Assembly (NCBI GenBank): GCA_964016885.1
Contig: OZ024743.1
Coordinates: forward strand, 363,444,001-363,508,000
Direction: 5' to 3'
DNA length: 64,000 nt
From: Eledone cirrhosa
Lineage: Eukaryota
The notes under the pieces are model-generated. The model was not told where the DNA came from, ran no database searches, and saw only the letters and a list, made by a program, of their open reading frames with translations. How positions within the stretch are numbered: position 1 is the first letter of the stretch; each line of letters begins with the position of its first letter. Positions 12,240 through 64,000 of the stretch are shown in pieces. Made by a program: the position numbers and the translations under genes.

Positions 12240-12282
12240 GTAGTCCTGAAGATTTCTAATAAGAATGAAACGCGTAGATTAC
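12240..12282 (+). ncRNA. Minimal type I hammerhead ribozyme, copy 2
   Basis: Same sequence as 11930-11972, offset by 310 bp. Confidence 0.85.
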
Positions 12283-12446
12283 TTCCCTTGCTTTTATCGA
12301 GAATCTAATTGTAATACGTGACGTATTCTATTCTATAGCGATTAGGTCTTCAAAATGTTTATTATAAACATACAGAATATTTTCGAATATTCTATGTCTA
12401 TATTCACATATATATCGCTATTTCAGAGCATTTATTCCAATTTATA

Positions 12447-15770: not shown

Positions 15771-16083
15771 AATTAAGTTAAACCCCTGGTAATCTACGAC
15801 GAATTTTTTTTATAAGCACAAAATGTAGACACCATCCCCTGGCCAATGTATTCCGTACTTCTCTGTACCGTTTGAGAAAGGAGGGATAAACATTAGTACA
15901 TTAAATGACATAAATAGAGTAGGGAAGGATATAGTTACTAGTTTAGAAATAGATAAGTACACAAACCCATATGTCCCTCTGACGCCTAGATTCTCTCTTA
16001 AGGATCACAAATGTAACTTTAATTAAAGCCCCTCTATTAGACTAATATGTCCCTCTACATCTGATATAGGTAAGATTAGTAAA

Positions 16084-16845: not shown

Positions 16846-17060
16846 CCGACGAATCTCCTAAATCCCTAATGATAGCTCCAGAAACCACCCCTTTCATAAG
16901 ACTAACGTTATAGTAAGCCATACCTATAACCGATCACGCGGCGGCTTTGAAAGAGTCGGGTGTAATAGTATAGAAAATCGCACTAAAAAACACGGCCACA
17001 ATGTTAATTACACTAGCGATAGTATAGGTAGCTTACCACACAATAAATATCACGACCCCG

Positions 17061-27978: not shown

Positions 27979-28336
27979 GGGCCGATGGCGAGAAAAAAAT
28001 TTAGGTAGTGGATGTAAGGGTGCTGGTGGTCGTGGTGATAATGGAGGTGGTTGTGGTGGTGGTGGCGGCCATGTTAGTACGACAGTAATGGTTATAGAGT
28101 CGATGTTAATGGTTGTGATAGTGTTGGGTACTGTGGTGGTTGTAGAGGGAGTAATAATTGTAGTTATGGTGTCGTTTGTGAGGAGGCTTGATGGTGATGG
28201 TTGTCGTGGTGGTGGTGGTGGTGGAGTACGGCGGTTTTACTGGTATTACTGATTTTGATAGTCCTCTAGTATGAGTGTTGTGATGGTTGTGGAGGGGATT
28301 AGTTGTAGTAGTGTTAATATAGTGTTGTTGTTGTTG

Positions 28337-31300: not shown

Positions 31301-34300
31301 ATGGTAAAGTTTGTGGTGGTGGTGATGGTAAGGTTTGTGTTGGTGGTGGTGGTGATGGTAAAGTTTGTGGTGGTGGTGGTGATGGTAAAGTTTGTGGTGG
31401 TGGTGGTGATGGTAAAGTTTGTGGTGGTGGTGATGGTAAGGTTTGTGGTAGTGGTGATGGTAGAGTTTGTGGTGGTGGTGATGGTAGAGTTTGTGGTGGT
31501 GGTGGTGGTGGTGGTGATGGTAAAGTTTGTGGTGGTGGTGGTGATGGTAAAGTTTGTGGTGGTGGTGATGGTAGAGTTTGTGGTGGTGGTGATGGAAGAG
31601 TTTGTGGTGGTGGTGATGGTAAAGTTTGTGGTGGTGGTGATGGTAAGGTTTGTGGTAGTGGTGATGGTAGAGTTTGTGGTGGTGGTGATGGTAGAGTTTG
31701 TGGTGGTGGTGATGGTAAAGTTTGTGGTGGTGGTGATGGTAAGGTTTGTGGTAGTGGTGATGGTAAAGTTTGTGGTGGTGGTGATGGTAAAGTTTGTGGT
31801 GGTGGTGATGGTAAAGTTTGTGGTGGTGGTGATGGTAAAGTTTGTGGTGGTGGTGATGGTAGAGTTTGTGGTGGTGGTGATGGTAGAGTTTGTGGTGGTG
31901 GTGATGGAAGAGTTTGTGGTGGTGGTGATGGTAAAGTTTGTGGTGGTGGTGATGGAAGAGTTTGTGGTGGTGGTGATGGTAAGGTTTGTGGTAGTGGTGA
32001 TGGTAGAGTTTGTGGTGGTGGTGATGGTAGAGTTTGTGGTGGTGGTGATGGTAAAGTTTGTGGTGGTGGTGATGGTAGAGTTTGTGGTGGTGGTGATGGT
32101 AAAGTTTGTGGTGGTGGTGATGGTAGAGTTTGTGGTGGTGGTGATGGTAGAGTTTGTGGTGGTGGTGATGGTAAAGTTTGTGGTGGTGGTGATGGAAGAG
32201 TTTGTGGTGGTGGTGATGGTAGAGTTTGTGGTGGTGGTGATGGAAGAGTTTGTGGTGGTGGTGATGGTAAAGTTTGTGGTGGTGGTGATGGTAGAGTTTG
32301 TGGTGGTGGTGATGGTAGAGTTTGTGGTGGTGGTGATGGTAAAGTTTGTGGTGGTGGTGATGGAAGAGTTTGTGGTGGTGGTGATGGTAGAGTTTGTGGT
32401 GGTGGTGATGGAAGTGTTTGTGGTGGTGGTGATGGTAGAGTTTGTGGTGGTGGTGATGGTAAAGTTTGTGGTGGTGGTGATGGAAGAGTTTGTGGTGGTG
32501 GTGATGGTAGAGTTTGTGGTGGTGGTGATGGTAAAGTTTGTGGTGGTGGTGATGGTAAAGTTTGTGGTGGTGGTGATGGTAAAGTTTGTGGTGGTGGTGA
32601 TGGTAGAGTTTGTGGTGGTGGTGATGGTAAAGTTTGTGGTGGTGGTGATGGAAGAGTTTGTGGTGGTGGTGATGGTAGAGTTTGTGGTGGTGGTGATGGT
32701 AAAGTTTGTGGTGGTGGTGATGGTAAGTTTGTGGTGGTGGTGATGGTAAAGTTTGTGGTGGTGGTGATGGTAGAGTTTGTGGTAGTGGTGATGGAAGAGT
32801 TTGTGGTGGTGGTGATGGTAGAGTTTGTGGTGGTGGTGATGGTAGAGTTTGTGGTGGTGGTGGTGATGGTAGAGTTTGTGGTAGTGGTGATGGTAGAGTT
32901 TGTGGTGGTGGTGGTGATGGTAAAGTTTGTGGTGGTGGTGATGGTAGAGTTTGTGGTGGTGGTGATGGTAGAGTTTGTGGTGGTGGTGATGGAAGAGTTT
33001 GTGGTGGTGGTGATGGTAGAATTTGTGGTGGTGGTGATGGTAGAGTTTGTGGTGGTGGTGATGGTAGAGTTTGTGGTGGTGGTGTTGGTGGTGGTGATGG
33101 TAAAGTTTGTGGTGGTGGTGGTGATGGTAAAGTTTGTGGTGGTGGTCATGGTAGAGTTTGTGGTGGTGGTGATGGTAGAGTTTGTGGTGGTGGTGATGGT
33201 AGAGTTTGTGGTGGTGGTGATGGTAAGGTTTGTGGTGGTGGTGATGGTAAAGTTTGTGGTGGTGGTGATGGTAGAGTTTGTGGTGGTGGTGGTGGTGGTG
33301 GTGATGGTAAAGTTTGTGGTGGTGGTGGTGATGGTAAAGTTTGTGGTGGTGGTGGTGATGGTAAGGTTTGTGGTAGTGGTGATGGTAGAGTTTGTGGTGG
33401 TGGTGATGGTAGAGTTTGTGGTGGTGGTGATGGTAGAGTTTGTGGTGGTGGTGATGGTAAGGTTTGTGGTGGTGGTGATGGTAAAGTTTGTGGTGGTGGT
33501 GATGGAAGAGTTTGTGGTGGTGGTGATGGTAGAGTTTGTGGTGGTGGTGATGGTAGAGTTTGTGGTGGTGGTGATGGTAAGGTTTGTGGTGGTGGTGATG
33601 GTAAAGTTTGTGGTGGTGGTGATGGTAAAGTTTGTGGTGGTGGTGATGGTAGAGTTTGTGGTGGTGGTGGTGGTGGTGGTGATGGTAAAGTTTGTGGTGG
33701 TGGTGGTGATGGTAAAGTTTGTGGTGGTGGTGGTGATGGTAAGGTTTGTGGTAGTGGTGATGGTAGAGTTTGTGGTGGTGGTGATGGTAGAGTTTGTGGT
33801 GCTGGTGATGGTAAAGTCTGTGGTGGTGGTGATGGTAAAGTTTGTGGCAGTGGTGATGGTAGAGTTTGTGGTGGTGGTGATGGTAAGGTTTGTGGTAGTG
33901 GTGATGGTAGAGTTTGTGGTGGTGGTGATGGTAGAGTTTGTGGTGGTGGTGATGGTAAAGTTTGTGGTGGTGGTGATGGTAAGGTTTGTGGTAGTGGTGA
34001 TGGTAGAGTTTGTGGTGGTGGTGATGGTAAAGTTTGTGGTGGTGGTGATGGTAGAGTTTGTGGTGGTGGTGGTGATGGTAAGGTTTGTGGTGGTGGTGAT
34101 GGTAAAGTTTGTGGTGGTGGTGATGGTAGAGTTTGTGGTGGTGGTGATGGTAGATTTTGTGGTGGTGGTGATGGTAAGGTTTGTGGTGGTGGTGATGGTA
34201 AAGTTTGTGGTGGTGGTGATGGTAAAGTTTGCGGTGGTGGTGATGGAAGAGTTTGTGGTGGTGGTGATGGAAGAGTTTGTGCTGGTGGTGATGGTAGAGT

Positions 34301-37300
34301 TTGTGGTGGTGGTGGTGATGGTAGAGTTTGTGGTGGTGGTGATGGTAGAGTTTGTGGTGGTGGTGATGGTAAGGTTTGTGGTAGTGGTGATGGTAAGGTT
34401 TGTGGTGGTGGTGATGGTAAAGTTTGTGGTGGTGGTGATGGTAAAGTTTGTGGTGGTGGTGATGGTAAAGTTTGTGGTGGTGGTGATGGTAGAGTTTGTG
34501 GTAGTGGTGATGGAAGAGTTTGTGGTGGTGGTGATGGTAGAGTTTGTGGTGGTGGTGATGGTAGAGTTTGTGGTGGTGGTGGTGATGGTAGAGTTTGTGG
34601 TGGTGGTGATGGTAGAGTTTGTGGTGGTGGTGATGGTAAGGTTTGTGGTAGTGGTGATGGTAGAGTTTGTGGTGGTGGTGGTGATGGTAGAGTTTGTGGT
34701 GGTGGTGATGGTAAAGTTTGTGGTGGTGGTGATGGTAGAGTTTGTGGTGGTGGTGATGGTAGAGTTTGTGGTGGTGGTGATGGTAAGATTTGTGTTAGTG
34801 GTGATGGTAGAGTTTGTGGTGGTGGTGGTGATGGTAGAGTTTGTGGTGGTGGTGATGGTAAGGTTTGTGGTAGTGGTGATGGTAGAGTTTGTGGTGGTGG
34901 TGATGGTAGAGTTTGTGGTGGTGGTGATGGTAAAGTTTGTGGTGGTGGTGATGGTAGAGTTTGTGGTGGTGGTGATGGTAAAGTTTGTGGTGGTGGTGGT
35001 GGTAAGGTTTGTGGTAGTGGTGATGGTAGAGTTTGTGGTGGTGGTGGTGATGGTAGAGTTTGTGGTGGTGGTGATGGTAAGGTTTGTGGTAGTGGTGATG
35101 GTAGAGTTTGTGGTGGTGGTGATGGTAGAGTTTGTGGTGGTGGTGATGGTAAAGTTTGTGGTGGTGGTGATGGTAGAGTTTGTGGTGGTGGTGATGGTAA
35201 AGTTTGTGGTGGTGGTGGTGGTAGAGTTTGTGGTGGTGGTGATGGTAAGGTTTGTGGTGGTGGTGGTGGTGATGGTAGAGTTTGTGGTGGTGGTGATGGT
35301 AGAGTTTGTGGTGGTGGTGATGGTAGAGTTTGTGGTGGTGGTGGTGATGGTAAAGTGTGTGGTGGTGGTGATGGTAGAGTTTGTGGTGGTGGTGATGGTA
35401 AAGTTTGTGGTGGTGGTGATGGTAGAGTTTGTGGTGGTGGTGGTGATGGTAGAGTTTGTGGTGGTGGTGATGGTAGAGTTTGTGGTGGTGGTGATGGTAG
35501 AGTTTGTGGTGGTGGTGATGGTAAAGTTTGTGGTGGTGGTGATGGTAGAGTTTGTGGTGGTGGTGATGGTAGAGTTTGTGGTGGTGGTGATGGTAAAGTT
35601 TGTGGTGGTGGTGATGGTAAAGTTTGTGGTGGTGGTGGTGATGGTAGAGTTTGTGGTGGTGGTGATGGTAGAGTTTGTGGTGGTGGTGATGGTAAAGTCT
35701 GTGGTGGTGGTGATGGTAAAGTTTGTGGTGGTGGTGGTGATGGTAGAGTTTGTGGTGGTGGTGATGGTAGAGTTTGTGGTGGTGGTGATGGTAAAGTCTG
35801 TGGTGGTGGTGATGGTAAGGTTTGTGGTGGTGGTGATGGTAAAGTCTGTGGTGGTGGTGATGGTAAGGTTTGTGGTAGTGGTGATGGTAGAGTTTGTGGT
35901 GGTGGTGATGGTAAAGTCTGTGGTGGTGGTGATGGTAAGGTTTGTGGTGGTGGTGATGGTAGAGTTTGTGGTGGTGGTGATGGTAAAGTCTGTGGTGGTG
36001 GTGATGGTAAAGTGTGTGGTGGTGGTGATGGTAGAGTTTGTGGTGGTGGTGGTGATGGTAGAGTTTGTGGTGGTGGTGATGGTAAAGTCTGTGGTGGTGG
36101 TGATGGTAAGGTTTGTGGTAGTGGTGATGGTAGAGTTTGTGGTGGTGGTGATGGTAGAGTTTGTGGTGGTGGTGGTGATGGTAGAGTTTGTGGTGGTGGT
36201 GATGGTAAAGTTTGTGGTGGTGGTGATGGTAGAGTTTGTGGTGGTGGTGATGGTAGGGTTTGTGGTGGTGGTGATGGTAAAGTTTGTGGTGGTGGTGGTG
36301 GTAGGGTTTGTGGTGGTGGTGATGGTAGAGTTTGTGGTGGTGGTGATGGTAGAGTTTGTGGTGGTGGTGGTGATGGTAAAGTGTGTGGTGGTGGTGATGG
36401 TAGAGTTTGTGGTGGTGGTGATGGTAGGGTTTGTGGTGGTGGTGATGGTAGAGTTTGTGGTGGTGGTGATGGTAGAGTTTGTGGTGGTGGTGGTGATGGT
36501 AAAGTGTGTGGTGGTGGTGATGGTAGAGTTTGTGGTGGTGGTGGTGATGGTAAAGTGTGTGGTGGTGGTGATGGTAGTGTTTGTGGTGGTGGTGATGGTA
36601 GAGTTTGTGGTGGTGGTGATGGTAGAGTTTGTGGTGGTGGTGATGGTAAAGTTTGTGGTGGTGGTGATGGTAAGGTTTGTGGTAGTGGTGATGGTAGAGT
36701 TTGTGGTGGTGGTGATGGTAGAGTTTGTGGTGGTGGTGATGGTAAAGTTTGTGGTGGTGGTGATGGTAGAGTTTGTGGTGGTGGTGATGGTAAAGTTTGT
36801 GGTGGTGGTGATGGTAAAGTTTGTGGTGGTGGTGATGGTAGAGTTTGTGGTGGTGGTGATGGTAAAGTTTGTGGTGGTGGTGATGGTAAAGTTTGTGGTG
36901 GTGGTGATGGTAGAGTTTGTGGTGGTGGTGATGGTAGAGTTTGTGGTGGTGGTGGTGATGGTAAAGTGTGTGGTGGTGGTGATGGTAGAGTTTGTGGTGG
37001 TGGTGGTGATGGTAAAGTGTGTGGTGGTGGTGATGGTAGTGTTTGTGGTGGTGGTGATGGTAGAGTTTGTGGTGGTGGTGATGGTAGAGTTTGTGGTGGT
37101 GGTGATGGTAAAGTTTGTGGTGGTGGTGATGGTAAGGTTTGTGGTAGTGGTGATGGTAGAGTTTGTGGTGGTGGTGATGGTAGAGTTTGTGGTGGTGGTG
37201 GTGATGGTAGAGTTTGTGGTGGTGGTGATGGTAAAGTTTGTGGTGGTGGTGATGGTAGAGTTTGTGGTGGTGGTGATGGTAGAGTTTGTGGTGGTGGTGA

Positions 37301-37437
37301 TGGTAAAGTTTGTGGTGGTGGTGATGGTAGAGTTTGTGGTGGTGGTGATGGTAGAGTTTGTGGTGGTGGTGATGGTAAGGTTTGTGGTGGTGGTGGTGAT
37401 GGTAGAGTTTGTGGTGGTGGTGATGGTAGAGTTTGTG
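28337..37437. repeat. Large 24-bp minisatellite (~9.1 kb, roughly 380 units)
   Basis: Unit atggtagagtttgtggtggtggtg with gag/aag/agg variants and extra gtg triplets. Confidence 0.97.
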
Positions 37438-37666
37438 GCTGTGGAGAGGTTGACAGCGGTGGTGTAGTGGTGGACATGGTTGTGGTAATGATGTTTGTGG
37501 AGGTAAAGTTTGTGGCTGTGATATTATGGTGTTTTTCATAGCTCTACTGAAGCGAAAACAACGGGGAGTCCAGAGAAAGAAATGTGGCGGAGACTTACAG
37601 AGAGGATAGAGACGGAATGGAACTGGAAAAAGAAATGTCTTGGGAAATCTGTGGAATGGCAACCGT

Positions 37667-37866
37667 NNNNNNNNNNNNNNNNNNNNNNNNNNNNNNNNNN
37701 NNNNNNNNNNNNNNNNNNNNNNNNNNNNNNNNNNNNNNNNNNNNNNNNNNNNNNNNNNNNNNNNNNNNNNNNNNNNNNNNNNNNNNNNNNNNNNNNNNNN
37801 NNNNNNNNNNNNNNNNNNNNNNNNNNNNNNNNNNNNNNNNNNNNNNNNNNNNNNNNNNNNNNNNNN
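37667..37866. other. Assembly gap (200 N)
   Basis: Run of N. Confidence 1.
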
Positions 37867-40800
37867 GTGATGTAGTTGTGGTTGATGGTAGAGTTTGTGG
37901 TGGTGGTGGTGATGGTAAAGTTTGTGGTAGTGGTGATGGTAGAGTTTGTGGTGGTGGTGATGGTAGAGTTTGTGGTGGTGGTGATGGTAGAGTTTGTGGT
38001 GTGGTGGTGATGGTAAGTTTGTGGTAGTGGTGATGGTAGAGTTTGTGGTGGTGGTGATGGTAGAGTTTGTGGTGGTGGTGATGGTAGGGTTTGTGGTGGT
38101 GGTGTATGGTAAGTTTGTGTAGTGGTGATGGTAGAGTTTGTGGTGGTGGTGATGGTAGGGTTTGTGGTGGTGGTGGTGATGGTAAGGTTTGTGGTAGTGG
38201 TGATGGTAGAGTTTGTGGTGGTGGTGGTGATGGTAAGGTTTGTGGTAGTGGTGATGGTAGAGTTTGTGGTGGTGGGTGATGGTATAGTTTTGTGGTGGTG
38301 GTGATGGTAGAGTTTGTGGTGGTGGTGATGGTAAAGTCTGTGGTGGTGGTGATGGTAAGTTTGTGGTAGTGGTGATGGTAGAGTTTGTGGTGGTGGTGAT
38401 GGGTAAAGTTTGTGGTGGTGGTGATGGTAAGGTTTGTGTTGGTGGTGGTGGTGATGGTAAAGTTTGTGGTGGTGGTGGGTGATGTAAAGTTTGTGGTGGT
38501 GGTGGTGATGGTAAAGTTTGTGGTGGTGGTGATGGTAAGGTTTGTGGTAGTGGTGATGGTAGATGTTTGTGGTGGTGGTGATGGTAGAGTTTGTGGTGGT
38601 GGTGGTGGTGGTGTGATGGTAAAGTTTGTGGTGGTGGTGGTGATGGTAAAGTTTGTGGTGGTGGTGATGGTAGAGTTGTGGTGGTGGTGATGGAAGAGTT
38701 TGTGGTGGTGGTGATGGTAAAGTTTGTGGTGGTGGTGATGGTAGGTTTGTGGTAGGTGGTGATGGTAGAGTTTGTGGTGGTGGTGATGGTAGAGTTTGTG
38801 GTGGTGGTGATGGTAAGTTTGTGGTGGTGGTGATGGTAAGGTTTGTGGTAGTGGTGATGGTAAAGTTTGTGGTGGTGGTGATGGTTAAGTTTGTGGTGGT
38901 GGGTGCATGGTAAAGTTTGTGGTGGTGGGTGATGGTAAAGTTTGTGGTGGTGGTGATGGTAGAGTTTGTGGTGGTGGTGATGGTAGAGTTGTGGTGGTGG
39001 TGATGAGGTTTGTGGTGGTGGTGATGGTAAGTTTGTGGTGGTGGTGATGGAAGAGTTTGTGGTGGTGGTGATGGTAGGTTTGTGGTAGTGGTGATGGTAG
39101 AGTTTGTGGTGGTGGTGATGGTAGAGTTTGTGGTGGTGGTGTGGTAAGTTTGTGGTGGTGGTGATGGTAGAGTTTGTGGTGGTGGTGATGGTAAGTTGTG
39201 GTGGTGGTGTGGTAGGTTTGTGGTGGTGGTGATGGTAGAGTTTGTGGTGGTGGTGATGGTAAGTTTGTGGTGGTGGTGATGGAAGGTTTGTGGTGGTGGT
39301 GATGGTAGGTTTGTGGTGGTGGTGATGGAGAGTTTGTGGTGGTGGTGATGGTAAGTTTGTGGTGGTGGTGATGGTAGGTTTGTGGTGGTGGTGATGGTAG
39401 AGTTTGTGGTGGTGGTGATGGAAAGTTTGTGGTGGTGGTGATGGAAGAGTTTGTGGTGGTGGTGATGGTAGAGTTTGTGGTGGTGGTGTGAAGTGTTTGT
39501 GGTGGTGGTGATGGTAGGTTTGTGGTGGTGGTGATGGTAAGTTTGTGGTGGTGGTGATGGAAGAGTTTGTGGTGGTGGTGAGGTAGAGTTTGTGGTGGTG
39601 GTGATGGTAAGTTTGTGGTGGTGGTGATGGTAAGTTGTGGTGGTGGTGATGGTAAGTTTGTGGTGGTGGTGATGGTAGAGTTTGTGGTGGTGGTGATGGT
39701 AGTTTGTGGTGGTGGTGATGGTAGAGTTTGTGGTGGTGGTGTGGTAGAGTTTGTGGTGGTGGTGATGGTAAGTTTGTGGTGGTGGTGATGGTAAGTTTGT
39801 GGTGGTGGTGATGGTAAGTTTGTGGTGGTGGTGATGGTAGAGTTTGTGGTGGTGGTGATGGAGAGTTTGTGGTGGTGTGATGGTAGAGTTTGTGGTGGTG
39901 GTGGTGGTAGGTTGTGGTGTGGGGTGATGGTAGAGTTTGTGGTGTGGTGATGTAGAGTTTGTGTGTGGTGGTGATGGTAGTTTGTGGTTGGTGGTGGATG
40001 GTAGAGTTTGTGGTGGTGGTGGTTGGTAGAGTTTGTTGGTGGTGGTGATGGAAGAGTTGGTGGTGGTGGTGTGGTAGATTTGTGGTGGTGGTGATGGTAG
40101 GTTTGTGGTGGTGGTGATGGTAGAGTTTGTGGTGGTGGTGTTGGTGGTGGTGATGGTAAGTTGTGGTGGTGGTGGTGATGGTTAAGTTTGTGGTGGTGGT
40201 GATGGTAGAGTTTGTGGTGGTGGTGATGGTGAGTTTGTCGGTGGTGGTGATGGTAGAGTTTGTGGTGGTGGGTGATGGTAAGGTTTGTGGTGGTGGTGAT
40301 GGTAAGTTTGTGGTGGTGGTGATGGTTGGTTTGTGGTGGGGGTGGTGGTTGTGGTGTGGTAAGTTGTGGTGGTGGTGGTGATGGTTAAGTTTGTGGGGTG
40401 GTGGTGGTGATGGTAGGTTTGTGTGTGGTGGGGGGGTTGGTTTGTGTGGTGGTGTGGTAGGTTGTGGTGGTGGTGTTGGAGGTTTGTGGTGGTGGTGTGG
40501 TGGTTTGTGGTGGTGGTGTTGGTAGGGTTTGTGGTTGGTGGTGTGGAGGGAGTTTGTGGTGGTGGTGTTGGTAGAGTTTGTGGGTGGTGGTGATGGTAGA
40601 GGTTTGTGGTGGTGGTGATGGTAGGTTGTGGTGGTGGTGATGGTAAGTTTTGTGGTGGTGGTGATGGTAAGTTTTGTGGTGGTGGTGATGGTTTGAGTTT
40701 GTGGTGGTGGTGGTGGTGGTGGTGTGGTTGGTGGTTTGGGTGGTGGTGGGTGATGTAAGTTTGTGGTGGTGGTGGTGATGGTAAGGTTTGTGGTAGTGGT

Positions 40801-43800
40801 GATGGTAGAGTTTGTGGTGGTGGTGATGGTAGAGTTTGTGGTGCTGGTGATGGTAAGTTGTGGTGGTGGTGATGGTAAGTTTGTGGCAGTGGTATGGTAG
40901 GTGTTGTGGTGGTGGTGATGGTAAGGTTTGTGGTAGTGGTGGTGGTAGAGTTTGTGGTGGTGGTGATGGTAGAGTTTGTGGTGGTGGTGATGGTAAGTTT
41001 TGTGGTGGTGGTGATGGTAGGTTTGTGGTAGTGGTGATGGTAGAGTTTGTGGTGGTGGTGATGGTAAAGTTTGTGGTGGTGGTGATGGTAGAGTTTGTGG
41101 TGGTGGTGGTGATGGTAAGGTTTGTGGTGGTGGTGATGGTAAAGTTTGTGGTGGTGGTGGATGGTAGAGTTTGTGGTGGTGGTGATGGTAGATTTGTGGT
41201 GGTGGTGATGGTAAGGTTGTGGTGGTGGTGATGGTAAGTTTGTGGTGGTGGTGATGGTAAAGTTTGCGGTGGTGGTGATGGAAGAGTTTGTGGTGGTGGT
41301 GATGGAAGGTTTGTGCTGGTGGTGATGGTAGAGTTTGTGGTGGTGGTGGTGATGGTAGAGTTTGTGGTGGTGGTGATGGTAGAGTTTGTGGTGGTGGTGA
41401 TGGTAAGGTTTGTGGTAGTGGTGATGGTAAGGTTTGTGGTGGTGGTGATGGTAAGTTTGTGGTGGTGGTGATGGTAAAGTTTGTGGTGGTGGTGATGGTA
41501 AAGTTTGTGGTGGTGGTGATGGTAGAGTTTGTGGTAGTGGTGATGGAGAGTTTGTGGTGGTGGTGATGGTAGGTTTGTGGTGGTGGTGATGGTAGAGTTT
41601 GTGGTGGTGGTGGTGATGGTAGAGTTTGTGGTGGTGGTGATGGTAGAGTTTGTGGTGGTGGGTGGTAGGTTTGTGGTAGGTGGTGATGGTAGAGTTTGTG
41701 GTGGTGGGGGTGTGGTAGAGTTTGTGGTGGTGGTGATGGTAAGTTTGTGGTGGTGGTGATGGTAGAGTTTGTGGTGGTGGGTGTTGGTAGAGTTTGTGGT
41801 GGTGGTGATGGTAAGATTTGTGTTAGTGGTGTGGTAGAGTTTGTGGTGGTGGTGGTGATGGTAGAGTTTGTGGTGGTGGTGTGTAGGTTGTGGTGTGGTG
41901 ATGGTTGAGTTTGTGGTGGTGGTGATGGTAGAGTTTGTGGTGGTGGTGATGGTAAGTTGTGGTGGTGGTGATGGTAGGTTTGTGGTGGTGGTGATGGTAA
42001 GTTTGTGGTGGTGGTGGTGGTAAGGTTTGTGGTAGTGGTGATGGTAGAGTTTGTGGTGGTGGTGGTGTTGGTAGGTTTGTGGTGGTGGTGATGGTAAGGT
42101 TTGTGGTGTGGTGATGGTAGAGTTTGTGGTGGTGGTGATGGGTAGAGTTTGTGGTGGTGGTGATGGTAAGTTTGTGGTGGTGGTGTGGTAGGTTTGTGGT
42201 GGTGGTGATGTAAGTTTGTGGTGGTGGTGGTGGTAGGTTTGTGGTGGTGGTGTGGTTAGGTTGTGGTGGTGGTGGTGGTGATGGTGGTTTGTGGTGGTGG
42301 TGGTGGTGGTTTGTGGTGGTGGTGATGGTAGAGTTGTGGTGGTGGTGGTGATGGTAAGTGTGTGGTGGTGGTGATGGTAGTGTTTGTGGTGGTGGTGTGG
42401 TAGTTGTGTGGGTGGTGGTGTGGTAGGTTTGTGGTGGTGGTGGTGATGGTAGTTTGTGTGGTGGTGGTGAGTTGTGGTGGTGATGGTAGGGTTTGTGGTG
42501 GTGGTGTGTGTGTTTGTGGTGGTGGTGATGGTAAGTGTGTGTGGTGGTGTGGTGAGTTGTGGTGAGGTGGTGGTGGGGTGTGGGTTGTGGTGAGGGTGGG
42601 TTTGTGGTGGTGGTGATGGTAAGTTTGTGGTGGTGGTGATGGTAAGTTTGTGGTGGTGGTGGTGATGGTAGAGTTTGTGGTGGTGGTGATGGTGAAGTTG
42701 TGGTGGTGGTGATGTAAGTTGTGGTGGTGGTGGGGATGGTAAGTTTGTGGTGGTGGTGGTGATGGTAGAGTTGTGGTGGTGGTGTGGTAGGGTTTGTGGT
42801 GGTGGGTGGTGGTAAGTCTGTGGTGGTGGTGATGGTAAGGTTTGTGGTGGTGGTGATGGTAAGTTGTGGTGGTGGTGATGGTAAGGTTTGTGGTAGTGGT
42901 GATGGTAGAGTTTGTGGTGGTGGTGATGGTAAGTCTGTGGTGGTGGTGATGGAAGGTTTGTGGTGGTGGTGATGGTAGAGTTTGTGGTGGTGGTGATGGT
43001 AAGTTTGTGGGTGGTGGTGATGGTAAGTGTGTGGTGGGTGGTGATGGTGAGTGTTTGTGGTGGTGGGGTGATGGTAGAGTTTGTGGTGGTGGTGATGGTA
43101 AGGTTGTGGTGGTGGTGATGGTAAGGTTGTGGTGGTGGTGATGGTAGGTTTGTGGTGGTGGTGATGGTAGAGTTTGTGGTGGTGGTGGTGATGGTAGAGT
43201 TTGTGGTGGTGGTGATGGGTAAGTTGTGGTGGTGGTGATGGTAGAGTTTGTGTGGTGGTGATGGTAGGGTTTGTGGTGGTGGTGATGGTAAGTTTGTTGG
43301 TGGTGTGGTGGTAGGGTTTTGGTGGTGGTGTGGTAGAGTTTGTGGTGGTGGTGATGGTAGAGTTTGTGTGTGGTGGTGGTGATGGTAAGTGTTGTGGTGG
43401 TGGTGATGGTAGGTTTGTGGTGGTGGTGATGGTAGGGTTTGTGGTGGTGGTGATGGTAGGTTGTGGTGGTGGTGATGGTAGAGTTTGGGGGTGGTGGTGA
43501 TGGTAGTGTGTGGTGGTGGTGGTAGGGTTTGTGGTGGTGGTGGTGATGGTAAGTGTGTGGTGGTGGTGATGTAGTGTTTGTGGTGGTGGTGTGGTAGGTT
43601 TGTGGTGGTGGTGATGGTGAGTTTGTGGTGGTGGTGATGGTAAGTTTGTGGTGGTGGTGATGGTAAGTTTGTGGTAGTGGTGATGGTAGAGTTTGTGGTG
43701 GTGGTGATGGTAGAGTTTGTGGTGGTGGTGATGGTAAGTTTTGGTGGTGGTGTGGGGTTTGTGGTGGTGGTGTGGTAAGTTGTGGTGGGTGGTGATGGTA

Positions 43801-44632
43801 AGTTTGTGGTGGTGGTGATGGTAGAGTTTGTGGTGGTGGTGATGGTAAAGTTTGTGGTGGTGGTGGTAAGGTTTGTGGTGGTGGTGATGGTAGAGTTTGT
43901 GGTGGGTGGTGATGGTAGAGTTTGTGGTGGGTGGTGGTGATGGTAAGTGTGTGGTGGTGGTGATGGTAGAGTTTGTGGTGGTGGTGGTGATGGTAAAGTG
44001 TGTGGTGGTGGTGATGGTAGTGTTGTGGTGGTGGTGATGGTAGAGTTTGTGGTGGTGGTGATGGTAGAGTTTGTGGTGGTGGTGATGGTAAGTTTGTGGT
44101 GGTGGTGATGGTAGGGTTTGTGGTGTGGTGTTGGTAGAGTTTGTGGTGGTGGTGTGGTAGAGTTTGTGGTGGTGGTGGTGATGGTAGAGTTTGTGGTGGT
44201 GGTGTGGTAAGTGTGGTGGTGGTGATGGTAGGTTTGTGGTGGTGGTGTGGTAGAGTTGTGGTGGTGGTGATGGAAGTTGTGGTGGTGGTGATGGTAGAGT
44301 TTGTGGTGGTGGTGATGGTAGAGTTTGTGGTGGTGGTGATGGTAAGGTTTGTGGTGGTGGTGGTGATGGTAGAGTTTGTGGTGGTGGTGATGGTAGAGTT
44401 TGTGGCTGTGGAGAGGTTGACAGCGGTGGTGTAGTGGTGGACATGGTTGTGGTAATGATGTTTGTGGAGGTAAAGTTTGTGGCTGTGATATTATGGTGTT
44501 TTTCATAGCTCTACTGAAGCGAAAACAACGGGGAGTCCAGAGAAAGAAATGTGGCGGAGACTTACAGAGAGGATAGAGACGGAATGGAACTGGAAAAAGA
44601 AATGTCTTGGGAAATCTGTGAATGGCAACCGT
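37867..44632. repeat. Indel-rich second copy of the distal satellite and its unique flank (probable false duplication of ~30770-37666)
   Basis: Rare variants recur in the same order (ggtatagttt 31183/38281; aagtgtttg 32412/39491); the unique flank 37436-37666 recurs at 44402-44632 with 1-bp deletions. Confidence 0.85.
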
Positions 44633-46099: not shown

Positions 46100-48010
46100 C
46101 GCGACAATACCACCATCACCACAACCACTACACCACTACCATGACATCACTGTCCACCACTACACTACCACCACTACACCACAACCACTACACCACCATC
46201 ACTACACCACCACCACAACCACAACCACATCACCACAACCACTACACCACTACCATGACATCACTGTCCACCACCATCACCACAAACACTACACCACTAC
46301 CATGACATCACTGTCCACCACTACACTACCACCACTACACCACAACCACTACATCACCACGACATCACTGTCCACTACTACACTAGCATCACTACACCAC
46401 CACAACACCACAACCACTACACCACTACCATGACATCACTGTCCACCACTACACTACCATCACTACACCACCATCACTACACTACCATCACTACACCACC
46501 ATCACTACACCACCACCACAACACCACAACCACTACACCACCACCACCACGACATCACTGTCCACTACTACACTACCATCACTACACCACCATCACTACA
46601 CCACCACACCACCACAACCACTACACCACTACCATGACATCACTGTCCACCACTACACTACCACCACTACACCACAACCACTACACCACCATCACTACAC
46701 CACCACCAAAACCACTACCACATCACCACAACCACTACACCACTACCATGACATCACTGTCCACCACTACACTACCACCACTACACCACAACCACTACAC
46801 CACCATCACTACACCACCACCAAAACCACTACCACATCACCACAACCACTACACCACTACCATGACATCACTGTCCACCACTACACTACCACCATTACAC
46901 CACAACCACTACATCACCACGACATCACTGTCCACTACTACACTAGCATCACTACACCACCACAACACCACAACCACTACACCACTACCATGACATCACT
47001 GTCCACCACTACACTACCATCACTACACCACCATCACTACACTACCATCACTACACCACCATCACTACACCACCACCACAACACCACAACCACTACACCA
47101 CCACGACATCACTGTCCACTACTACACTACCATCACTACACCACCATCACTACACTATCACCACAACACCACGACCACTACATCACCACCACCATCACAT
47201 CACTATCCACCACTACACTACCACCACTATACCACAACCACTACATCACCACGACATCACTGTCCACTACTACACTACCATCACTACACCACCACAACAC
47301 CACAACCACTACACCACTACCATGACATCACTGTCCACCACTACACTACCACCACTACACCACAACCACCACTACACCACAACCACTACATCACCACCAC
47401 CACGACATCACTGTCCACCACTACACCACAACCACTACACCACCACTACTACACCACCACTACACCACTACACCACTACACCACTACACCACTACACCAC
47501 CACTACACCACCACCACTACACCACTACTACTACAACACCACCACTACACCACCACTACACCACTACACCACTACACCACCACCACTACACCACCACTAC
47601 ACCACCACTACTACACCACTACTACACCACCACTACACCACCACCACTACACCACTACCACTACACCACCACTACTACACTATCACCACTACACTACTAC
47701 CACTACACCACCCCACTACATCACCACCACTAAACCACCACCACTCTACCATTCCACTACACCACCACCACAACATAACCATTTCCTCCCCACCACTACT
47801 ACCTCAACACCACTACACCACTGTCACCACTACACCACCACCACCATTACACCACCACCACTACCACTACACCACCACCACCACCACTACTACCTCAACG
47901 CTACTACACCACCACCACCACTACACCACCACCATCACTACTACCTCAACACCACTACACCACTGTCACCACTACACTACCACCACCACCACCACTATAC
48001 TACCACCGCC
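46100..48010. repeat. Complex CAC-rich minisatellite with a higher-order ~560-bp duplication
   Basis: Recurrent caccactaccatgacatcactgtccacc; the block near 46290-46560 recurs near 46850-47120. Confidence 0.85.
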
Positions 48011-52886: not shown

Positions 52887-52930
<44 letters not shown>

Positions 52931-53342
52931 ATATTAAATAAATGGAAACTATATTTATAAAACCATATTTATTTTATTATATATATTTCAAGGGTACCAA
53001 AAGACTTTGGTGCGCTATCTTCAGATAAAATACAAAATTTGTTTTATAAATAGAGACATACCCAGGAAAATCATACCTTATCACTTGGATATTCTCTGGG
53101 TAGAGTTGGATATTCTCTATCCAAAGTATATCCAAGTGATAAGGTATGATTTTCCTGGGTATGTCTCTATTTATAAAACAAACTTTGTATTTTATCTGAA
53201 GAAAGCGTACCAAAGTCTTTTGGTACCCTTGAAATATATATAATAAAATAAATATGGTTTTATAAATATAGTTTCCATTTATTTAATATCATTGTATATA
53301 TTTACTCCAGGAGACTGTTGAGTGCTCTAAATCAGTTATAAA
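52845..53342. mobile_element. Fold-back element (~230-bp arms) carrying an HHR in each arm
   Basis: 52923-53099 is reverse-complementary to 53121-53298; the arms extend outward across a (TA)n expansion. Confidence 0.85.
53188..53250 (+). ncRNA. Minimal HHR-like motif; mirror copy at 52970-53032 (-)
   Basis: tattttat CTGAAGA aagcgtaccaaa-gtct-tttggtaccctt GAAA TATATATA ataaaata. Confidence 0.7.
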
Positions 53343-57344: not shown

Positions 57345-59429
57345 GCCAGATTTAACTTGGGATACATGTCTCATCGCTGTCGGATCTCTGGATGCCAGCC
57401 TCAACTGTGAATGTCTCTATCATTCCTGCTTCATTTCCAAACCACTGTACAACCTCTACATGTCTCATCTTTGTTTCATTGTTCACTGTTTATTTCATCT
57501 CTGTGGCTAACACAAAAATACAGTGGTTCTCAGAGACATAGATCACATTTTCCCCTTGCAATCTGATTTCCCCAATTCTTCCCCCATTTAGCATTGTCAT
57601 CTAGTAAATTTTCACCCAAGCACCATATTAATATGAACAAGCGTTTCAAACATCAATAATTGTATAGTCTCAAGTGGGATAAATCTGAAGCACTAGTTTT
57701 TTGTGAACTGTTGATTTGTGATCGCCCTTTTCGTTATGCATATTGGTATTTCATGATATATACACAATATACACTATTCCTTTTCAGTGTGAATTACTCC
57801 ATTGACAAACATTCCTATCTAATTCCTTCTTTGGTTAATATTCCTTTTCTGCAATTTGAAGTTCTTCCTTGGAAGCCAAGTGTCCCCCGTTTGAGATCCA
57901 CTACTTCAAAAGATACCATTTTAAAGCCAAATCGTTATCAAACCACATCAAAATACCTTTAAAGGGAAGAAAACGTTGTATCATGCAGTCTCAAATCCAA
58001 CACGTTTGGGGAAAATGACAAGGCAATCATAGCTAGATCACTACTGACCATAAATATACCCGATCACAGCTGAGATGGAACTAAACAACATTTGACTACT
58101 CTTGCAAGACTATCTATCTGTAAATAGGTTCAATGTAGTGGTGCATGTCCCAGTTTATCGAATATACTTAGCCTTGAATAAGTTAAGAATGTAATAGCCC
58201 CAAACTAGAAAACGAAACAGTAGAGTATAGTTTCGAAAAGTTGAGTAATTCGCTACTTCTAAGCCCATTCAGGTAAACCTGACTCCGGGAAAATTAAAGG
58301 CAAAGTCAACGTCAGTCGGATTTGAATTTGGAAAGTATAGGAATGTTAAATATCTATTGCAATTTATTTAATGCTATACCGACTCTAGCATCTACCATTT
58401 TCCATCTTGATGAGTAATAGCAATAATACGATGTAGGAGAAGGATATATAGGAGAGATTCTATACCTAGGGCTAGTAGGATCAATCTTTTTCTCCCACAC
58501 ATTCTGTATATCTATAGAGATATTTCTATGTTATGCAAGACTTACTCTAACAATACTCTAACTTTCTCAGTCCCACTGGCAATATATATCAAATGACGAT
58601 TTCTTGTTTGACATTTTAATAACCTCCCTTTACTCTAAACATATTCTAAAGTCTGCCATATCACTAAAATTATGTTGATTTATTTCTAACGTTTACACAT
58701 TGATTTTACTTATTCATTTTCTCTCACCCTCATACTCTTCCTCTCTCTGTAAACAAATACTTATTTACATGTATACATACATATAAAACATACAAAAATA
58801 CAGGCACACATACACTCATATACAGTTATAGTGCTCTTATGATTGCTTTAGTCCATAAACTAATTGTCAATTATTCAAATCGACTGTGAGATATTGGCAA
58901 AGACATTTAAAATTCGAAGTTCGATTTTTGCGCAGAGTGTTGATACACTTTACCATGCTGATATATTTTAACTAAGACTCTTCCACACGCATACACACAC
59001 TAACCCATACACACACTAACCCATACACACATAGGTAAATAAACATATATATGTATGCGTATTTATATATATATATACATTACATATATATCTCTTTATC
59101 TCTCTCCCCTCCCCTCTTTATATATATATATATATATATATGAAAAAACAATATATGAAACACTCATATATGAAAAAACAACCTGTGACAACCCCCCCCC
59201 CCTCTCTTATTTGAAGAACTATTGTAACGCGAACTGGCGCGAAATTTATTATAATTATTGACAAACCAATCAAATTACTTCTCGAAAAACCTGGTTTTCG
59301 AGCCAGTTTTTCCATATAAAACAAGTAACATTTAGAGACCAACCAGATGTGAGAAAAACCACAGACCCTCCATCTCAACTCACCTTTTGAAAAGCAGAAG
59401 AACTGCGAAACCGGTAAAGGAACCAAATA

Positions 59430-59550
59430 AATATATATATTTAAAAAAAAATAAGACTTCAGTTGCATTTTCGATTTCATCCCTTTTTCTTTATACTTCC
59501 ACTCGTGTAGGACACCTCGGTTATTTTTCATTTTGTAAAAAAAACCTCAC

Positions 59551-59560
<10 letters not shown>
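59430..59560. repeat. Dispersed repeat, second copy at ~63700-63840
   Basis: ataagact.cagttgcattttcgatttcat...actcgtgtaggacacctcggttatttttcattttg is shared. Confidence 0.75.
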
Positions 59561-59589
<29 letters not shown>

Positions 59590-59619
59590 AGCAAATATAT
59601 ATATATATGTATATATATA

Positions 59620-60237
59620 TTTGAGCTAATAATACTATTATTATTATTATTACAGTGAACTGCGGAATACTCTTAATTCCGATTTTTGTATAATTAATGA
59701 GCTCCAAATTGTTGAGCTAATAATTCGCATGGTTGGGCTGCACTTTCTAGCATCTTCCCCAATCTACGAGAGCCGTTATTTGATTCGAATAACACGTGAT
59801 TTTGCCCACTCTGGCCCGCGTATCTATTTGCAATCTCTCTAGCCATGAGGTTAGATGTGCAGTGTTCAGTGTTCGCATTTGCTGACTGATGATCCATGTG
59901 GACCGATACTGCACATATAAGTGGTGAAACGAAGCTAGGTTCGTATCAGCAAAATATAGTTATAAGGTTTGTGATTTAAAATTCCAATCCAGAGATTTGA
60001 TTCTGATCTGGTTTTTTTCTATGTAATTGCTAACCTGTAGATATTGTTCCCTATACAATAACGGTAAAATCACTTGTAATAATTCTTTACACACATCTCA
60101 CTGTGTAACATATTTCTCTTTGTGTAATATATACTTGCATTTGAGCTCGGAAGGAAATTCTATATTCTTCTTTGAGCTAATAATACTATTATTATTATTA
60201 TTACAGTGAACTGCGGAATACTCTTAATTCCGATTTT

Positions 60238-60240
<3 letters not shown>
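59620..60240 (+). mobile_element. 551-bp non-coding unit with a 70-bp terminal direct repeat and a complete HHR (retrozyme-like)
   Basis: 59620-59689 equals 60171-60240; flanked by (TA)n. Confidence 0.85.
59878..59953 (+). ncRNA. Complete type I hammerhead ribozyme
   Basis: tttgctga CTGATGA tcca...tggt GAAA cgaa-gctagg-ttcg TA tcagcaaa: 8-bp stem I, 4-bp stem III plus A-U, GUA cleavage after 59945. Confidence 0.9.
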
Positions 60241-60287
<47 letters not shown>

Positions 60288-60828: not shown

Positions 60829-60982
60829 GATGGAGTTGTGGTAAGGAACCAGATGGACCATAACGCACCAGAGTACTCAATGCTTAGTAGTAGAGTGGGT
60901 AATAGGAAAAAGTATGACCCCGACGGCAGAGCTCAAGCTGTTTCGACGGCTATTTCTGGACGCATATATATATATATATATA

Positions 60983-61884
60983 TAAACGGAAAAAATGAAA
61001 TGAAATTTTATTTCTCACTCTTAGTACGGCTGTTACTTAAATATAAGTATGTATACGTACATACATATATGTATACAGACGTACAGTAGTATGTATATAT
61101 ATATATATATACATACATGCACACATATATATATATGTACGTATGGATTTACCGAACATTTATTATAATGCTCGGTGTGTTTGTAAACAAACATCCCGAA
61201 TTAAGCCGTACAACACTGACAAAGGAACGCTGTACTAGTTCCAAGCTTATTAGCTATCGTCAGCAACGTATACCTTCCTGCCAGATGATTGAACGTCTGA
61301 AAGTATATACTTTCCTTATGCATATTAACGGCTGAGCAGCCTAGCATTATAATAAATGTTCGGTAAATCCATACGTACATATATATGTGTGCATGTATAT
61401 ATATATATACATACTACTGTACGTCTGTATACATATATGTATGTACGTATACATACTTATATTTAAGTAACAGCCGTACTAAGAGTGAGAAATGAAATTT
61501 CGTTTCATTTTTTCCGTTTATCGTTTTCGGTGCCCCCGGCCGATTAACTCACTCGATATGCAAATTAGGCTGCTCAGCCGTTAATATGCATAAGGAAAGT
61601 ATATACTTTCAGACGTTCAATCATCTGGCAGGAAGGCATACGTTGCTGACGATAGCTAATAAGCTTGAAACTAGCACAGCGTTCCTTTGTCAGTGTTGAA
61701 CAAAAGAGCAATGATGGTTGCTAAACACTGTACGGCTTAATTCGGGATGTTTGTTTACAAACACACCGAGCATTATAATAAATGTTCGGTAAATCCGTAC
61801 GTACATATATATATGTGTGCATGTATGTATATATATATATATATACATACTACTGTACGTCTGTATACATATATGTATGTACGT

Positions 61885-61890
<6 letters not shown>
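60983..61890 (+). mobile_element. 426-bp HHR unit with terminal redundancy, preceded by an inverted, differently permuted copy
   Basis: agcattataataaatgttcgg at 61343 and 61769; 60983-61342 is a reverse-complement copy running across the unit junction. Confidence 0.85.
61640..61682 (+). ncRNA. Minimal type I HHR; mirror copy at 61227-61269 (-)
   Basis: acgttg CTGACGA tagctaataagctt GAAA CTAG CA cagcgt; the mirror copy reads GGAA CTAG TA, so the consensus is canonical. Confidence 0.8.
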
Positions 61891-61968
<78 letters not shown>

Positions 61969-62199: not shown

Positions 62200-62264
<65 letters not shown>

Positions 62265-62267
<3 letters not shown>

Positions 62268-63076
62268 TTTATTTTGTTTGACCTGTTTAGCTTGACTTGT
62301 TTTTTGGCTTAGGTGGTTAATGCCTTCTTGACCACTTTTCAGTTTGTATGGCGTTTTAAAATATCGTTTAGCTCTAGTTTTTCTTAACTATTGAAGCGCT
62401 TGCCACCATTTCTACGATTTTGCGTTTCGTTTCGCTTTTTCTACCGGCCGAAATACGATTCTCGCTGAATATATATTTATATTAAACTCCCGAGTTTTAC
62501 AATTAACCTGTTAATAATTCTATTGACAGATTAATTGCATAAGTTTATTTTAAAAACTACCCGGTGGAGTGCTTATTCGATTTGTGCTATCTATGCAATT
62601 TTTTGTATGATATACACTTACTGAATTCATTTGCCAAAATCTGGGAATTTTTCCCCTCGTGACTTATGCATGTGCCTTTTCAAGGTTCTGCGTCACTCAC
62701 AAAGTTGGTTAAAGAGCAAAATACCTATTGATAACGTAATATTCCTTGTTCGATCTTTATGCTGAAAGTTTCTAGTTTTAAGCAGACAGTATTATTGATT
62801 TAGGTGTCATAGAAACCCTGCATTTGGATTTTACCATCAATTCCATTTGGGTCCAGGTCTGTTTATATCATTTATTTTGTTTGACCTGTTTAGCTTGACT
62901 TGTTTTTTGGCTTAGGTGGTTAATGCCTTCTTGACCACTTTTTCAGTTTGTATGGCGTTTTAACATATTGTTTAGCTCTAGTTTTTCTTAACTATTGGAG
63001 CGCTTGCCAGCATTTCTACGATTTTGCGTTTCGTTTCGCTTTTTCCACCGGGCGAAATACGATTCTCGCTGAATAT
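62265..63076 (+). mobile_element. 603-bp unit with a ~205-bp terminal direct repeat, in (TA)n
   Basis: 62265-62471 recurs at 62868-63076; no TG..CA ends or PBS. Confidence 0.8.
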
Positions 63077-63161: not shown

Positions 63162-64000
63162 TATATATACATAAATATATATATATATACATAAATATAT
63201 GCACACACACATATACCAATAAACAGGCGATGAATTCATAAGCTCTGCCCGAATCACACGGCACGTAGCATTAAACATTCACTTCATTTTGATTACCAGA
63301 GCTTAGCAAAGGACCTAACCCATTCCTATAAACTAGCGGAATACCCAGGATAACAACATTCCCTTCTCCCCTGCTGCACACAAACTGGCAGACCAGAGGA
63401 AGTTTCTCTACGAACACTATGAACTCTATCCCAACTCCTATCTTAACGTTATTCTCCATATTTTCCCCCTATCTATCTTCCCAGTCCTCATTGTATGGCA
63501 GTATCGATAGAGGGTCGGGCGCCATGATTTGCAATCTTAGAGTTACGCCCCTTTACGGGGTCGATAAAGTATCTGTAATGCACTGGGATAATTGCTGGCC
63601 TTGTGCCAAAAATAGAAACAATTATATATTTAGACACATTTGTACCTGTTAGGAGACCTTTACGCGGATCCCAGACCATATTTCCTTGCCTTTATATATA
63701 TATATATATATTTAAAAATAAGACTCCAGTTGCATTTTCGATTTCATCTTCTTTTTTTTTATACTTTCACTCGTGTAGGACACCTCGGTTATTTTTCATT
63801 TTGTTAAAAAAAAAACAAAAAAACCCTCACTTTTTAATATATATATATATATATTATACATACACACACATACACACATACATATGAACGCCCATATACA
63901 CGTACAAATGTGCGTACACATATAAACGTAAAATACGCGCAAACATGAATAAATACATGCCTACACACAGACATGCATATATACATTCATATATGAATAT

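What the first reader, a model, noticed from the sequence alone, without database searches (positions are those of the whole stretch)
59620..60240. Complete canonical type I hammerhead in a 551-nt terminally redundant unit
All core nucleotides are intact, with an 8-bp stem I, a stable stem III and a GUA site, so it should be able to cleave as a monomer. The upstream atgtgcagt (59855-59863) is exactly complementary to actgcacat in loop II (59908-59916), a candidate pseudoknot. The identical 70-bp end repeats suggest recent copying 1.13 times around a circular or tandem template.
Basis: partly seen in the sequence, partly recalled or inferred. Interest (0 to 1): 0.82.

Follow-up and report, generated by a model that had tools for sequence, protein, structure and literature searches.

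The report
Hammerhead retrozyme carried by Penelope elements
A 551-base repeat that encodes no protein but holds a predicted self-cutting RNA lies in hundreds of copies in this animal genome, with the end structure of Penelope retrotransposons, so it likely borrows their enzymes to copy itself, probably from a circular RNA.

Summary
But this is one copy of a family with hundreds of members. In 83 sampled insertions (148 arms) the element is only concatemers of the unit. 3' ends are fixed at two sites about 105 nt apart (73 and 60 arms), 5' ends are scattered, and 41 of 43 fully typed head-to-head pairs join one end of each kind, mostly inside (TA)n. That is the Penelope-like element (PLE) signature. 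The 70-base redundancy is just where this copy stopped, and it does not show recent copying. The ribozyme is not canonical: U·U replaces G10.1-C11.1, stem II is 2-3 bp, and Rfam misses it. Arms read through the cut site without scars, so the template was a circle or an uncut multimer; no RNA data decide this. Three insertions join a retrozyme arm to an autonomous PLE arm, two of them Hydra-like. Verdict: an animal non-LTR retrozyme variant with PLE insertion anatomy.

The parts
59620..60240 (+). One 5'-truncated insertion (1.13 units) of the 551-nt element; single arm, no inverted arm
59620..59689 (+). First copy of the 70-base redundancy; its left edge is this copy's own 5' truncation point, not a fixed end
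   Evidence: 5' ends scattered over the whole unit
59855..59863 (+).
59872..59877 (+). 5' strand of the proximal pseudoknot helix; pairs with 59897-59902; compensatory changes at 3 of 6 pairs
59878..59953 (+). Type I hammerhead: stem I 59878-85/59946-53, core 59886-92, U·U at 59893/59925, stem II 59894-96/59922-24, GAAA 59926-29, stem III 59929-33/59940-44, predicted cut after 59945
59897..59916 (+). Loop II stretch that pairs with 59855-59877 (proximal, middle and distal helices; together a ~20-bp hairpin)
60064..60129 (+). AC-rich predicted stem-loop region just upstream of the inner fixed end; no compensatory changes seen
60130..60144 (+). Inner fixed 3' end (site B, unit 511-525, modes 513-517): where the other arm of two-armed insertions stops
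60137..60240 (+). 'Tail' of about 104-111 nt between the two fixed ends
60240..60243 (+). Outer fixed 3' end (site A, unit 70-73), running into (TA)n
59557..59619 (.). Left (TA)n target flank, with a short imperfect stutter of the element's first bases at 59586-59595
60242..60284 (.). Right (TA)n target flank

Best explanation
It is one truncated copy of a dispersed, protein-less 551-nt hammerhead repeat with two fixed 3' ends, scattered 5' ends and head-to-head arms in (TA)n, likely copied in trans by the reverse transcriptase-endonuclease of a Penelope-like element from a template that was probably a ligated RNA circle. Shown: family, fixed ends, A+B pairing of arms, scar-free read-through of the cut site, no ORF, conserved core and covarying stems. 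Inferred steps: (1) a rare locus with two ribozymes in one arm is transcribed and cut twice; (2) the monomer is ligated, and the long 5' flank/loop II hairpin keeps the ribozyme off in the circle; (3) a PLE protein cuts both strands of a (TA)n target; (4) one target end primes at site A and the other at site B, about 105 nt upstream; (5) each cDNA runs round the template for 0.1-2.3 units and the two are joined head-to-head, often over a few shared bases, or one arm is lost, as in the window copy. A Hydra-clade PLE is the best guess for the donor. Class assignment about 0.9; with the circle about 0.65.
For: Family: 1052 and 1259 candidates, 773 exact matches to a 23-mer, 212 to the ribozyme pattern, control 0. 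Anatomy in 83 insertions, 148 arms: 73 end at A, 60 at B, 15 elsewhere; of 57 head-to-head junctions 41 are A+B, 1 A+A, 1 B+B, 14 involve an untyped end; 37 of 57 junctions overlap by BLAST edges. 22 of 22 true A ends and 18 of 21 true B ends listed run into TA repeats. This matches the PLE description (partial tandems, inverted 5'-truncated copy, tail at one end; PMC8557442) and the two internal start sites measured for a lizard PLE (PMC11167929). Template: 2 of 148 5' ends lie within 6 nt of the cut site against 3.5 expected; 6 arms cross it twice, longest 1246 nt; 94 of 96 crossings keep length. No ORF: longest stop-free frame in a dimer 83 codons. Ribozyme kept: in loci not chosen by the core pattern, 0 of 24 core, stem II and stem III sites have a second allele in >= 4 insertions, against 61 of 402 sites in five other regions. 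Donors exist: 10,596 GIY-YIG candidates, a Hydra-like family with many open ~758-codon frames at 93-96% identity, and two chimeras with it.
Against: No parent found: no blastn hit to 46 PLE loci at E 0.05, and local alignments to five PLE end regions scored within shuffle range. The tail (104-111 nt) is longer than the published 30-40 nt and than the 40-80 nt seen in five autonomous families here. The duplicate test for a single circular template was inconclusive: 41 of 227 within-arm differences fall on alleles shared with other insertions, which recurrent mutation or mixed templates could both give. In the lizard PLE, unprocessed RNA was the main substrate and ribozyme mutants still inserted. 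In the 2026 preprint 8 of 9 predicted retrozymes did not cleave in vitro. Samples were chosen by best similarity or by pattern, so long arms and intact ribozymes are over-represented.
Confidence: 0.65

Rival explanations
1. Same PLE passenger, but the template is an uncut linear read-through transcript of tandem loci; no circle is needed and the ribozyme is mostly off or acts at another step.
For: Scar-free read-through fits this equally. In this copy the off hairpin is predicted far more stable (-23.1 kcal/mol as a duplex) than the three-helix ribozyme (-10.5), and stem I has probability 0.0 in the pseudoknot-free ensemble. Unprocessed RNA was the main substrate in vitro for a lizard PLE. Some tandem units within one arm differ at shared alleles, for example 8 of 34 differences in L130.
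Against: No long array that could serve as master was seen among the listed hits (longest arm 2.3 units). Without a way to regain length, daughters can only shorten, yet subfamilies 76-95% identical persist. The core is conserved across subfamilies.
Confidence: 0.25
2. The unit is simply the pLTR of an autonomous PLE that was not sampled, and these are its short truncated copies.
For: The preprint finds many Xenopus retrozymes homologous to pLTRs. Only a small part of the PLE diversity was sampled (87,481 Hydra-like and 10,596 GIY-YIG candidates). An unexplained tenfold depth peak at 60060-60134 could mark a more abundant relative.
Against: In real pLTRs here the sequence past the outer end runs into the ORF start; in this element it returns to the unit. 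All 30 loci taken by the 23-mer inside the depth peak were family members without an ORF in the arm.
Confidence: 0.06
3. An LTR-like or DNA-level repeat: a fixed unit with 70-base terminal repeats (plant-type LTR retrozyme), or a satellite spread by DNA recombination.
For: The window copy alone looks like a unit with direct terminal repeats; the 3' end is invariant.
Against: The redundancy differs in every copy and 5' ends are scattered; the ribozyme is type I and lies outside the repeat; inverted arms with an A+B rule and (TA)n targeting are not expected from recombination.
Confidence: 0.03

Closest known systems
Animal non-LTR retrozymes (Cervera and de la Pena 2020, PMC7229834; Li, Clavereau and Pollet, bioRxiv 10.64898/2026.07.22.740005)
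   Same: Type I hammerhead in a non-coding head-to-tail unit, low GC (35.8%), coexisting with PLEs. The axolotl HHR_Amex2 also has U·U at the base of helix II.
   Different: 551 nt (150-450 in the 2020 paper, 51-972 in the preprint). Dispersed 0.1-2.3-unit arms rather than arrays. Two fixed ends, tail and inverted arms: 'inverted' occurs 0 times in the 2020 main text, 'tail' 0 times in the preprint. Long stem III and a covarying pseudoknot. Expression unknown.
EN+ Penelope-like elements, insertion anatomy (Craig et al. 2021, PMC8557442; Arkhipova et al. 2013, PMC3846280; Frangieh et al. 2024, PMC11167929)
   Same: Partial tandems, inverted 5'-truncated arm, tail at one end only, microhomology joins, AT-rich targets, an AC-rich stem-loop near a start site, hammerhead upstream of the ends.
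   Different: No ORF; tail about three times longer; no homology found to an autonomous pLTR. Non-autonomous PLEs were already described in Chlamydomonas, but there without canonical hammerheads.
Hydra-clade PLEs (PMC8557442 section 11)
   Same: (TA)n targets and canonical hammerheads. Two Hydra-like families here carry U·U at 10.1/11.1; one shares the CC/GG stem II, the other a long stem III. Two chimeric insertions involve one of them.
   Different: Their tails are about 65-80 nt and their end regions do not align significantly with the unit.
Pseudoknotted hammerheads with short stem II (Perreault et al. 2011, PMC3088659)
   Same: 2-bp stem II, natural U10.1-U11.1 mismatch, pseudoknot between loop II and the strand extending from stem I.
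   Different: Here the pairing can extend to about 20 bp, predicted too long to coexist with stem II, which suggests an off state.

Membership tests
Type I hammerhead ribozyme | Core C3-A6, G8, A9, G12-A14, A15.1-U16.1, H17 | tested here: met
   (44-49 of 46-50 insertions keep each base)
Type I hammerhead ribozyme | Stems I, II, III with stem I open | tested here: met
   one compensatory pair in stem I; stem II only 2-3 bp
Type I hammerhead ribozyme (canonical) | G10.1-C11.1 pair | tested here: not met
   U·U in the window; U/A/C and U/C/G in the family; a known active variant
Type I hammerhead ribozyme | Match to Rfam hammerhead models | tested here: not met
Type I hammerhead ribozyme | Self-cleavage | not testable with these tools
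   needs an in vitro assay
Animal non-LTR retrozyme | Non-coding head-to-tail unit of a few hundred bases, GC < 50%, type I hammerhead in each unit | tested here: met
Animal non-LTR retrozyme | [quoted passage not shown] | tested here: inconclusive
   Not met by the window copy; 6 of 148 arms cross two cut sites, whose cores were not each checked
Animal non-LTR retrozyme | Expressed as circular RNA | not testable with these tools
   no RNA holder listed
Penelope-like element | Partial tandems with 5' truncation and an inverted 5'-truncated arm | tested here: met
   57 head-to-head junctions in 83 insertions
Penelope-like element | [quoted passage not shown] | tested here: met
   two fixed ends, A+B in 41 of 43 typed pairs; length 104-111 nt, not 30-40
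Penelope-like element (autonomous) | ORF with RT and GIY-YIG endonuclease | tested here: not met
   hence non-autonomous
Derivative of a named PLE family | Sequence homology to an autonomous pLTR | tested here: inconclusive
   none found in the families sampled; most families not sampled
Plant LTR retrozyme | Type III hammerhead inside fixed LTRs, 4-bp target duplication | tested here: not met
   type I, outside the repeat, variable redundancy; PBS and PPT not searched
Hydra clade (for the partner element in L081/L146) | RWK-like and DKT motifs, CxCX5C linker, CxxC and CxH in the endonuclease, C-terminal GIY-YIG, hammerhead, (TA)n target | tested here: met
   motifs read in the translation against PMC8557442 section 11; profile match to the Pfam-positive RT/GIY-YIG family at probability 96.7, E 3.6e-10. 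Pfam itself gave no RT or GIY-YIG hit; no tree was built

The most novel reading that the evidence does not exclude
Each two-armed PLE insertion is built from two RNA templates: the two cut target ends prime at the outer and inner start sites, and the two cDNAs are joined head-to-head. That is why a retrozyme arm can be welded to the arm of an autonomous Hydra element. These chimeras would name the mobiliser of an animal retrozyme circle and replace the antisense self-priming model for the PLE inverted repeat.
Probability: 0.35. Interest if true: 0.72.

Novelty: new variant of a known kind. Interest (0 to 1): 0.45.

Why it matters
That PLEs mobilise animal retrozymes is a current proposal resting on co-occurrence and pLTR homology, with the mechanism stated as open. 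This family shows the PLE insertion footprint on a retrozyme directly and gives two precise start sites, a candidate intact donor family and a rule (one outer plus one inner end per insertion) that can be tested in the existing in vitro PLE assay. The chimeras bear on how the PLE inverted arm is made. The ribozyme offers a natural animal example of a pseudoknot that may double as an off switch. The parts are each known, so a specialist would find this useful rather than startling.

Tried and rejected
Rfam: no hammerhead hit; the E <= 10 hits are (TA)n artefacts. Expression: no RNA holder listed, three runs of unknown kind from one study; their contigs confirm family variants only. No match to the ribozyme pattern in metagenome or viral contigs. 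Parent search: PF26215 is not in the library; GIY-YIG loci, Neptune-like, Hydra-like and 459-nt families gave no significant similarity to the unit; a 15-of-16 match near site B with one Hydra-like family was not significant. I first took the upstream Neptune-like 3' end (59158-59557) as a possible parent and dropped it: it is a neighbour in the same TA tract, with a 62-nt tail and no hammerhead found. Tail structure: 35 predicted pairs, 0 compensatory. Circle-versus-multimer duplicate test: inconclusive. PDB sequence search of the partner protein: nothing below E 0.2. Alignment A1 had shifted minus-strand rows and was replaced by A2. The Hydra query was out of frame and was redone. One of 8 Hydra rows was out of frame; the program used 7 of 8. 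Literature search returned nothing relevant. Earlier findings: none by place or sequence.

Full report
Observation. The hammerhead is not chance: a strict descriptor hits once in the window and never in 60 shuffles. It is not canonical, though. After CUGAUGA comes U59893, facing U59925, and stem II is CC/GG plus one A-U pair closing a 25-nt loop. Rfam finds no hammerhead. A U10.1-U11.1 mismatch and 2-bp stems II occur in natural hammerheads (PMC3088659, passages and section 8), and the axolotl retrozyme with U·U cleaved 22% in an hour as a monomer and better as a dimer (PMC7229834, parts 2-3 of 6 and passages). Monomer cleavage is therefore plausible but untested.

The family. The window lies in a 3.0-Gb genome; no call names the organism. 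The unit has 1052 and 1259 first-look candidates, 773 exact matches to a 23-mer and 212 to a ribozyme pattern. I examined 120 loci from four searches, removed 31 re-fetches by hand and 6 loci of another family, leaving 83 insertions with 148 arms. These were chosen by best similarity, by ribozyme pattern or as the first places on one chromosome, so long arms and intact ribozymes are over-represented. Arms consist only of the unit, head to tail, 76-100% identical to the window copy. A dimer has no frame longer than 83 codons.

Ends. 73 arms end at unit 63-79 (60 of them at 73; site A, window 60240-60243), 60 at unit 500-525 (site B, window about 60130-60144), 15 elsewhere. 5' ends are spread over the whole unit. 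There are 57 head-to-head junctions: 41 A+B, 1 A+A, 1 B+B, 14 with one untyped end; 26 insertions, including the window copy, have none. 37 junctions overlap by 1-20 nt, 6 are blunt, 14 have extra bases (BLAST-edge estimates). In one search, 22 of 22 true A ends and 18 of 21 true B ends run into TA repeats. Partial tandems, an inverted 5'-truncated copy and a tail at one end are the described PLE structure (PMC8557442, passages; PMC3846280, passages and discussion). In vitro, a lizard PLE cuts and extends both target strands and starts cDNA at two internal sites that bound the tail (PMC11167929, parts 1-2 of 4). I read A and B as those two sites (inference). The tail here is 104-111 nt. A second ORF-less hammerhead family (459 nt) has the same anatomy with a 111-nt tail, though the two units do not align significantly. 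It cannot date the copy: within-arm duplicates differ at 3.9% on average, and the closest sampled relatives are 95-96% identical.

Template. 84 arms cross the predicted cut site once and 6 twice; 2 of 148 5' ends lie near it against 3.5 expected; 94 of 96 crossings keep exact length. So cDNA was not made on cut linear monomers, and jumping between them would probably leave scars. A ligated circle or an uncut multimer remain. I favour the circle because no long array appeared and something must restore length over many subfamilies, and because related retrozymes are expressed as circles. The duplicate test did not decide (41 of 227 differences on shared alleles), and no RNA run was available. 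The window copy has one ribozyme and cannot release a monomer.

Ribozyme structure across copies. In loci not selected on the core, 0 of 24 core, stem II and stem III sites carry a common second allele, against 61 of 402 sites in five comparison regions; position 7 and 10.1/11.1 vary. The helix 59872-59877/59897-59902 has 3 of 6 pairs with two-sided changes in 4, 9 and 4 sequences. A second set of 14 (13 not selected on the core) repeats this: 3 of 6 against 1 of 9. Across both alignments all 5 copies with an extra U before stem I also have an extra A after stem II, which adds a pair to that helix; none of the copies lacking the A has the U. These are subfamily events, probably few and not independent. 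Seven copies with a duplication inside loop II were left out of both alignments. The proximal helix abuts stems I and II, the geometry described for pseudoknotted hammerheads. Proximal, middle and distal helices together form a ~20-bp hairpin, -23.1 kcal/mol as a duplex in this copy against -10.5 for the three ribozyme helices; it dominates the pseudoknot-free folds. The window copy's distal helix is the strongest of those scored (-13.1, medians -6.8 and -6.4). A 5-nt linker cannot span a 20-bp helix (geometric inference), so the full hairpin is likely an off state, which would suit a circle that must not recut.

Donor. No autonomous parent was found. Three of 83 insertions join a unit arm directly, 5' to 5', to an arm of an autonomous PLE, with (TA)n at both outer ends. 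L081/L137: unit arm ending at A plus 2.3 kb of a PLE ending at its own short end, over a 2-base overlap. L127/L139: unit arm ending at B plus a short arm of a related family. L126: unit arm ending at A plus the 3' end of a different element, whose relative in L062 shows a GIY-YIG-like motif by my reading. The L081 partner has the Hydra-clade motifs, aligns by profile to the Pfam-positive RT/GIY-YIG family, resembles Atlas clusters with PLE-type domains (a lead only), and has at least 105 copies at 93-96% identity, many with open frames. Against a simple reading: the two arms of ordinary insertions are close kin (3.0% apart, against 8.2% for random pairs); L127 joins two short ends; L126 has another partner; and deletion between neighbours in crowded TA tracts could give the same picture. 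The arms of one insertion often overlap over the whole unit, which excludes twin priming on one linear monomer but not on a circle. The published model for the inverted arm is self-priming on an antisense template.

Novelty. The class is known, and a 2026 preprint (parts 1-3 of 5 and a term search) argues that animal retrozymes are non-autonomous PLE derivatives while leaving the mechanism open. Circular templates for PLE tandems were proposed in PMC4209133 (parts 1-2 of 4). Seven literature searches showed no report of PLE tail and inverted-arm anatomy on a retrozyme or of inter-family two-armed chimeras; the library lacks most subscription papers and I read no supplements, which may list such families. 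I rate it a new variant of a known kind, interest 0.45.

Noticed in passing
window 11773-12443: 2.2 identical copies of a 310-base unit between TA tracts, with a hammerhead at 11936 and 12246: a very young two-ribozyme retrozyme of another family, a better candidate for a circle source than the finding itself.
   Followed up: partly
window 52925-53304: Head-to-head pair with minimal hammerheads at 53024 (-) and 53196 (+) beside a TA tract; PLE-type stub.
   Followed up: partly
window 60982-61900: Inverted-arm element with hammerhead-like motifs at 61263 (-) and 61646 (+); related to a ~491-nt tandem array of at least four units in L071 7718-9901.
   Followed up: partly
window 59158-59557 and 63694-63862: 3' ends of a Neptune-like PLE (near full-length in L061). 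No hammerhead was found in its pLTR by my descriptors, although canonical PLEs are said always to have one.
   Followed up: partly
window 15901-18191 (+) and 19332-20513 (-): Broken fragments of Hydra-like PLE reading frames.
   Followed up: no
window 62261-63000: 603-base direct repeat beside a TA tract, no hammerhead found.
   Followed up: no
window 28336-44405: 16-kb satellite of a 24-base GT-rich unit with GC skew near +1; an opposite-strand relative at 46100-48000.
   Followed up: no
window 60060-60134: Summed contig depth about ten times that of the rest of the unit in three runs; not explained by the 30 loci sampled there.
   Followed up: partly
L062 7010-7919; L107-L128: A second ORF-less family, 459 nt, same U·U and CC/GG stem II base, long branched stem II, two fixed ends 111 nt apart.
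   Followed up: partly
G000, L141-L207: Hydra-like PLEs are very abundant: 87,481 candidates, many open ~758-codon frames; 7,530 exact matches to a short-stem-II hammerhead pattern, tied to a Hydra-like ORF in several loci. Pfam misses the protein.
   Followed up: partly
L009, L081, L082, L102, L119, L120, L126: Subfamily with a 16-20 nt duplication inside loop II of the ribozyme.
   Followed up: no
L210 about 1713-1760; L133 and L232: One arm's 5' end abuts a telomere-like hexamer run; two other arms abut the same LINE-like 3' region.
   Followed up: no
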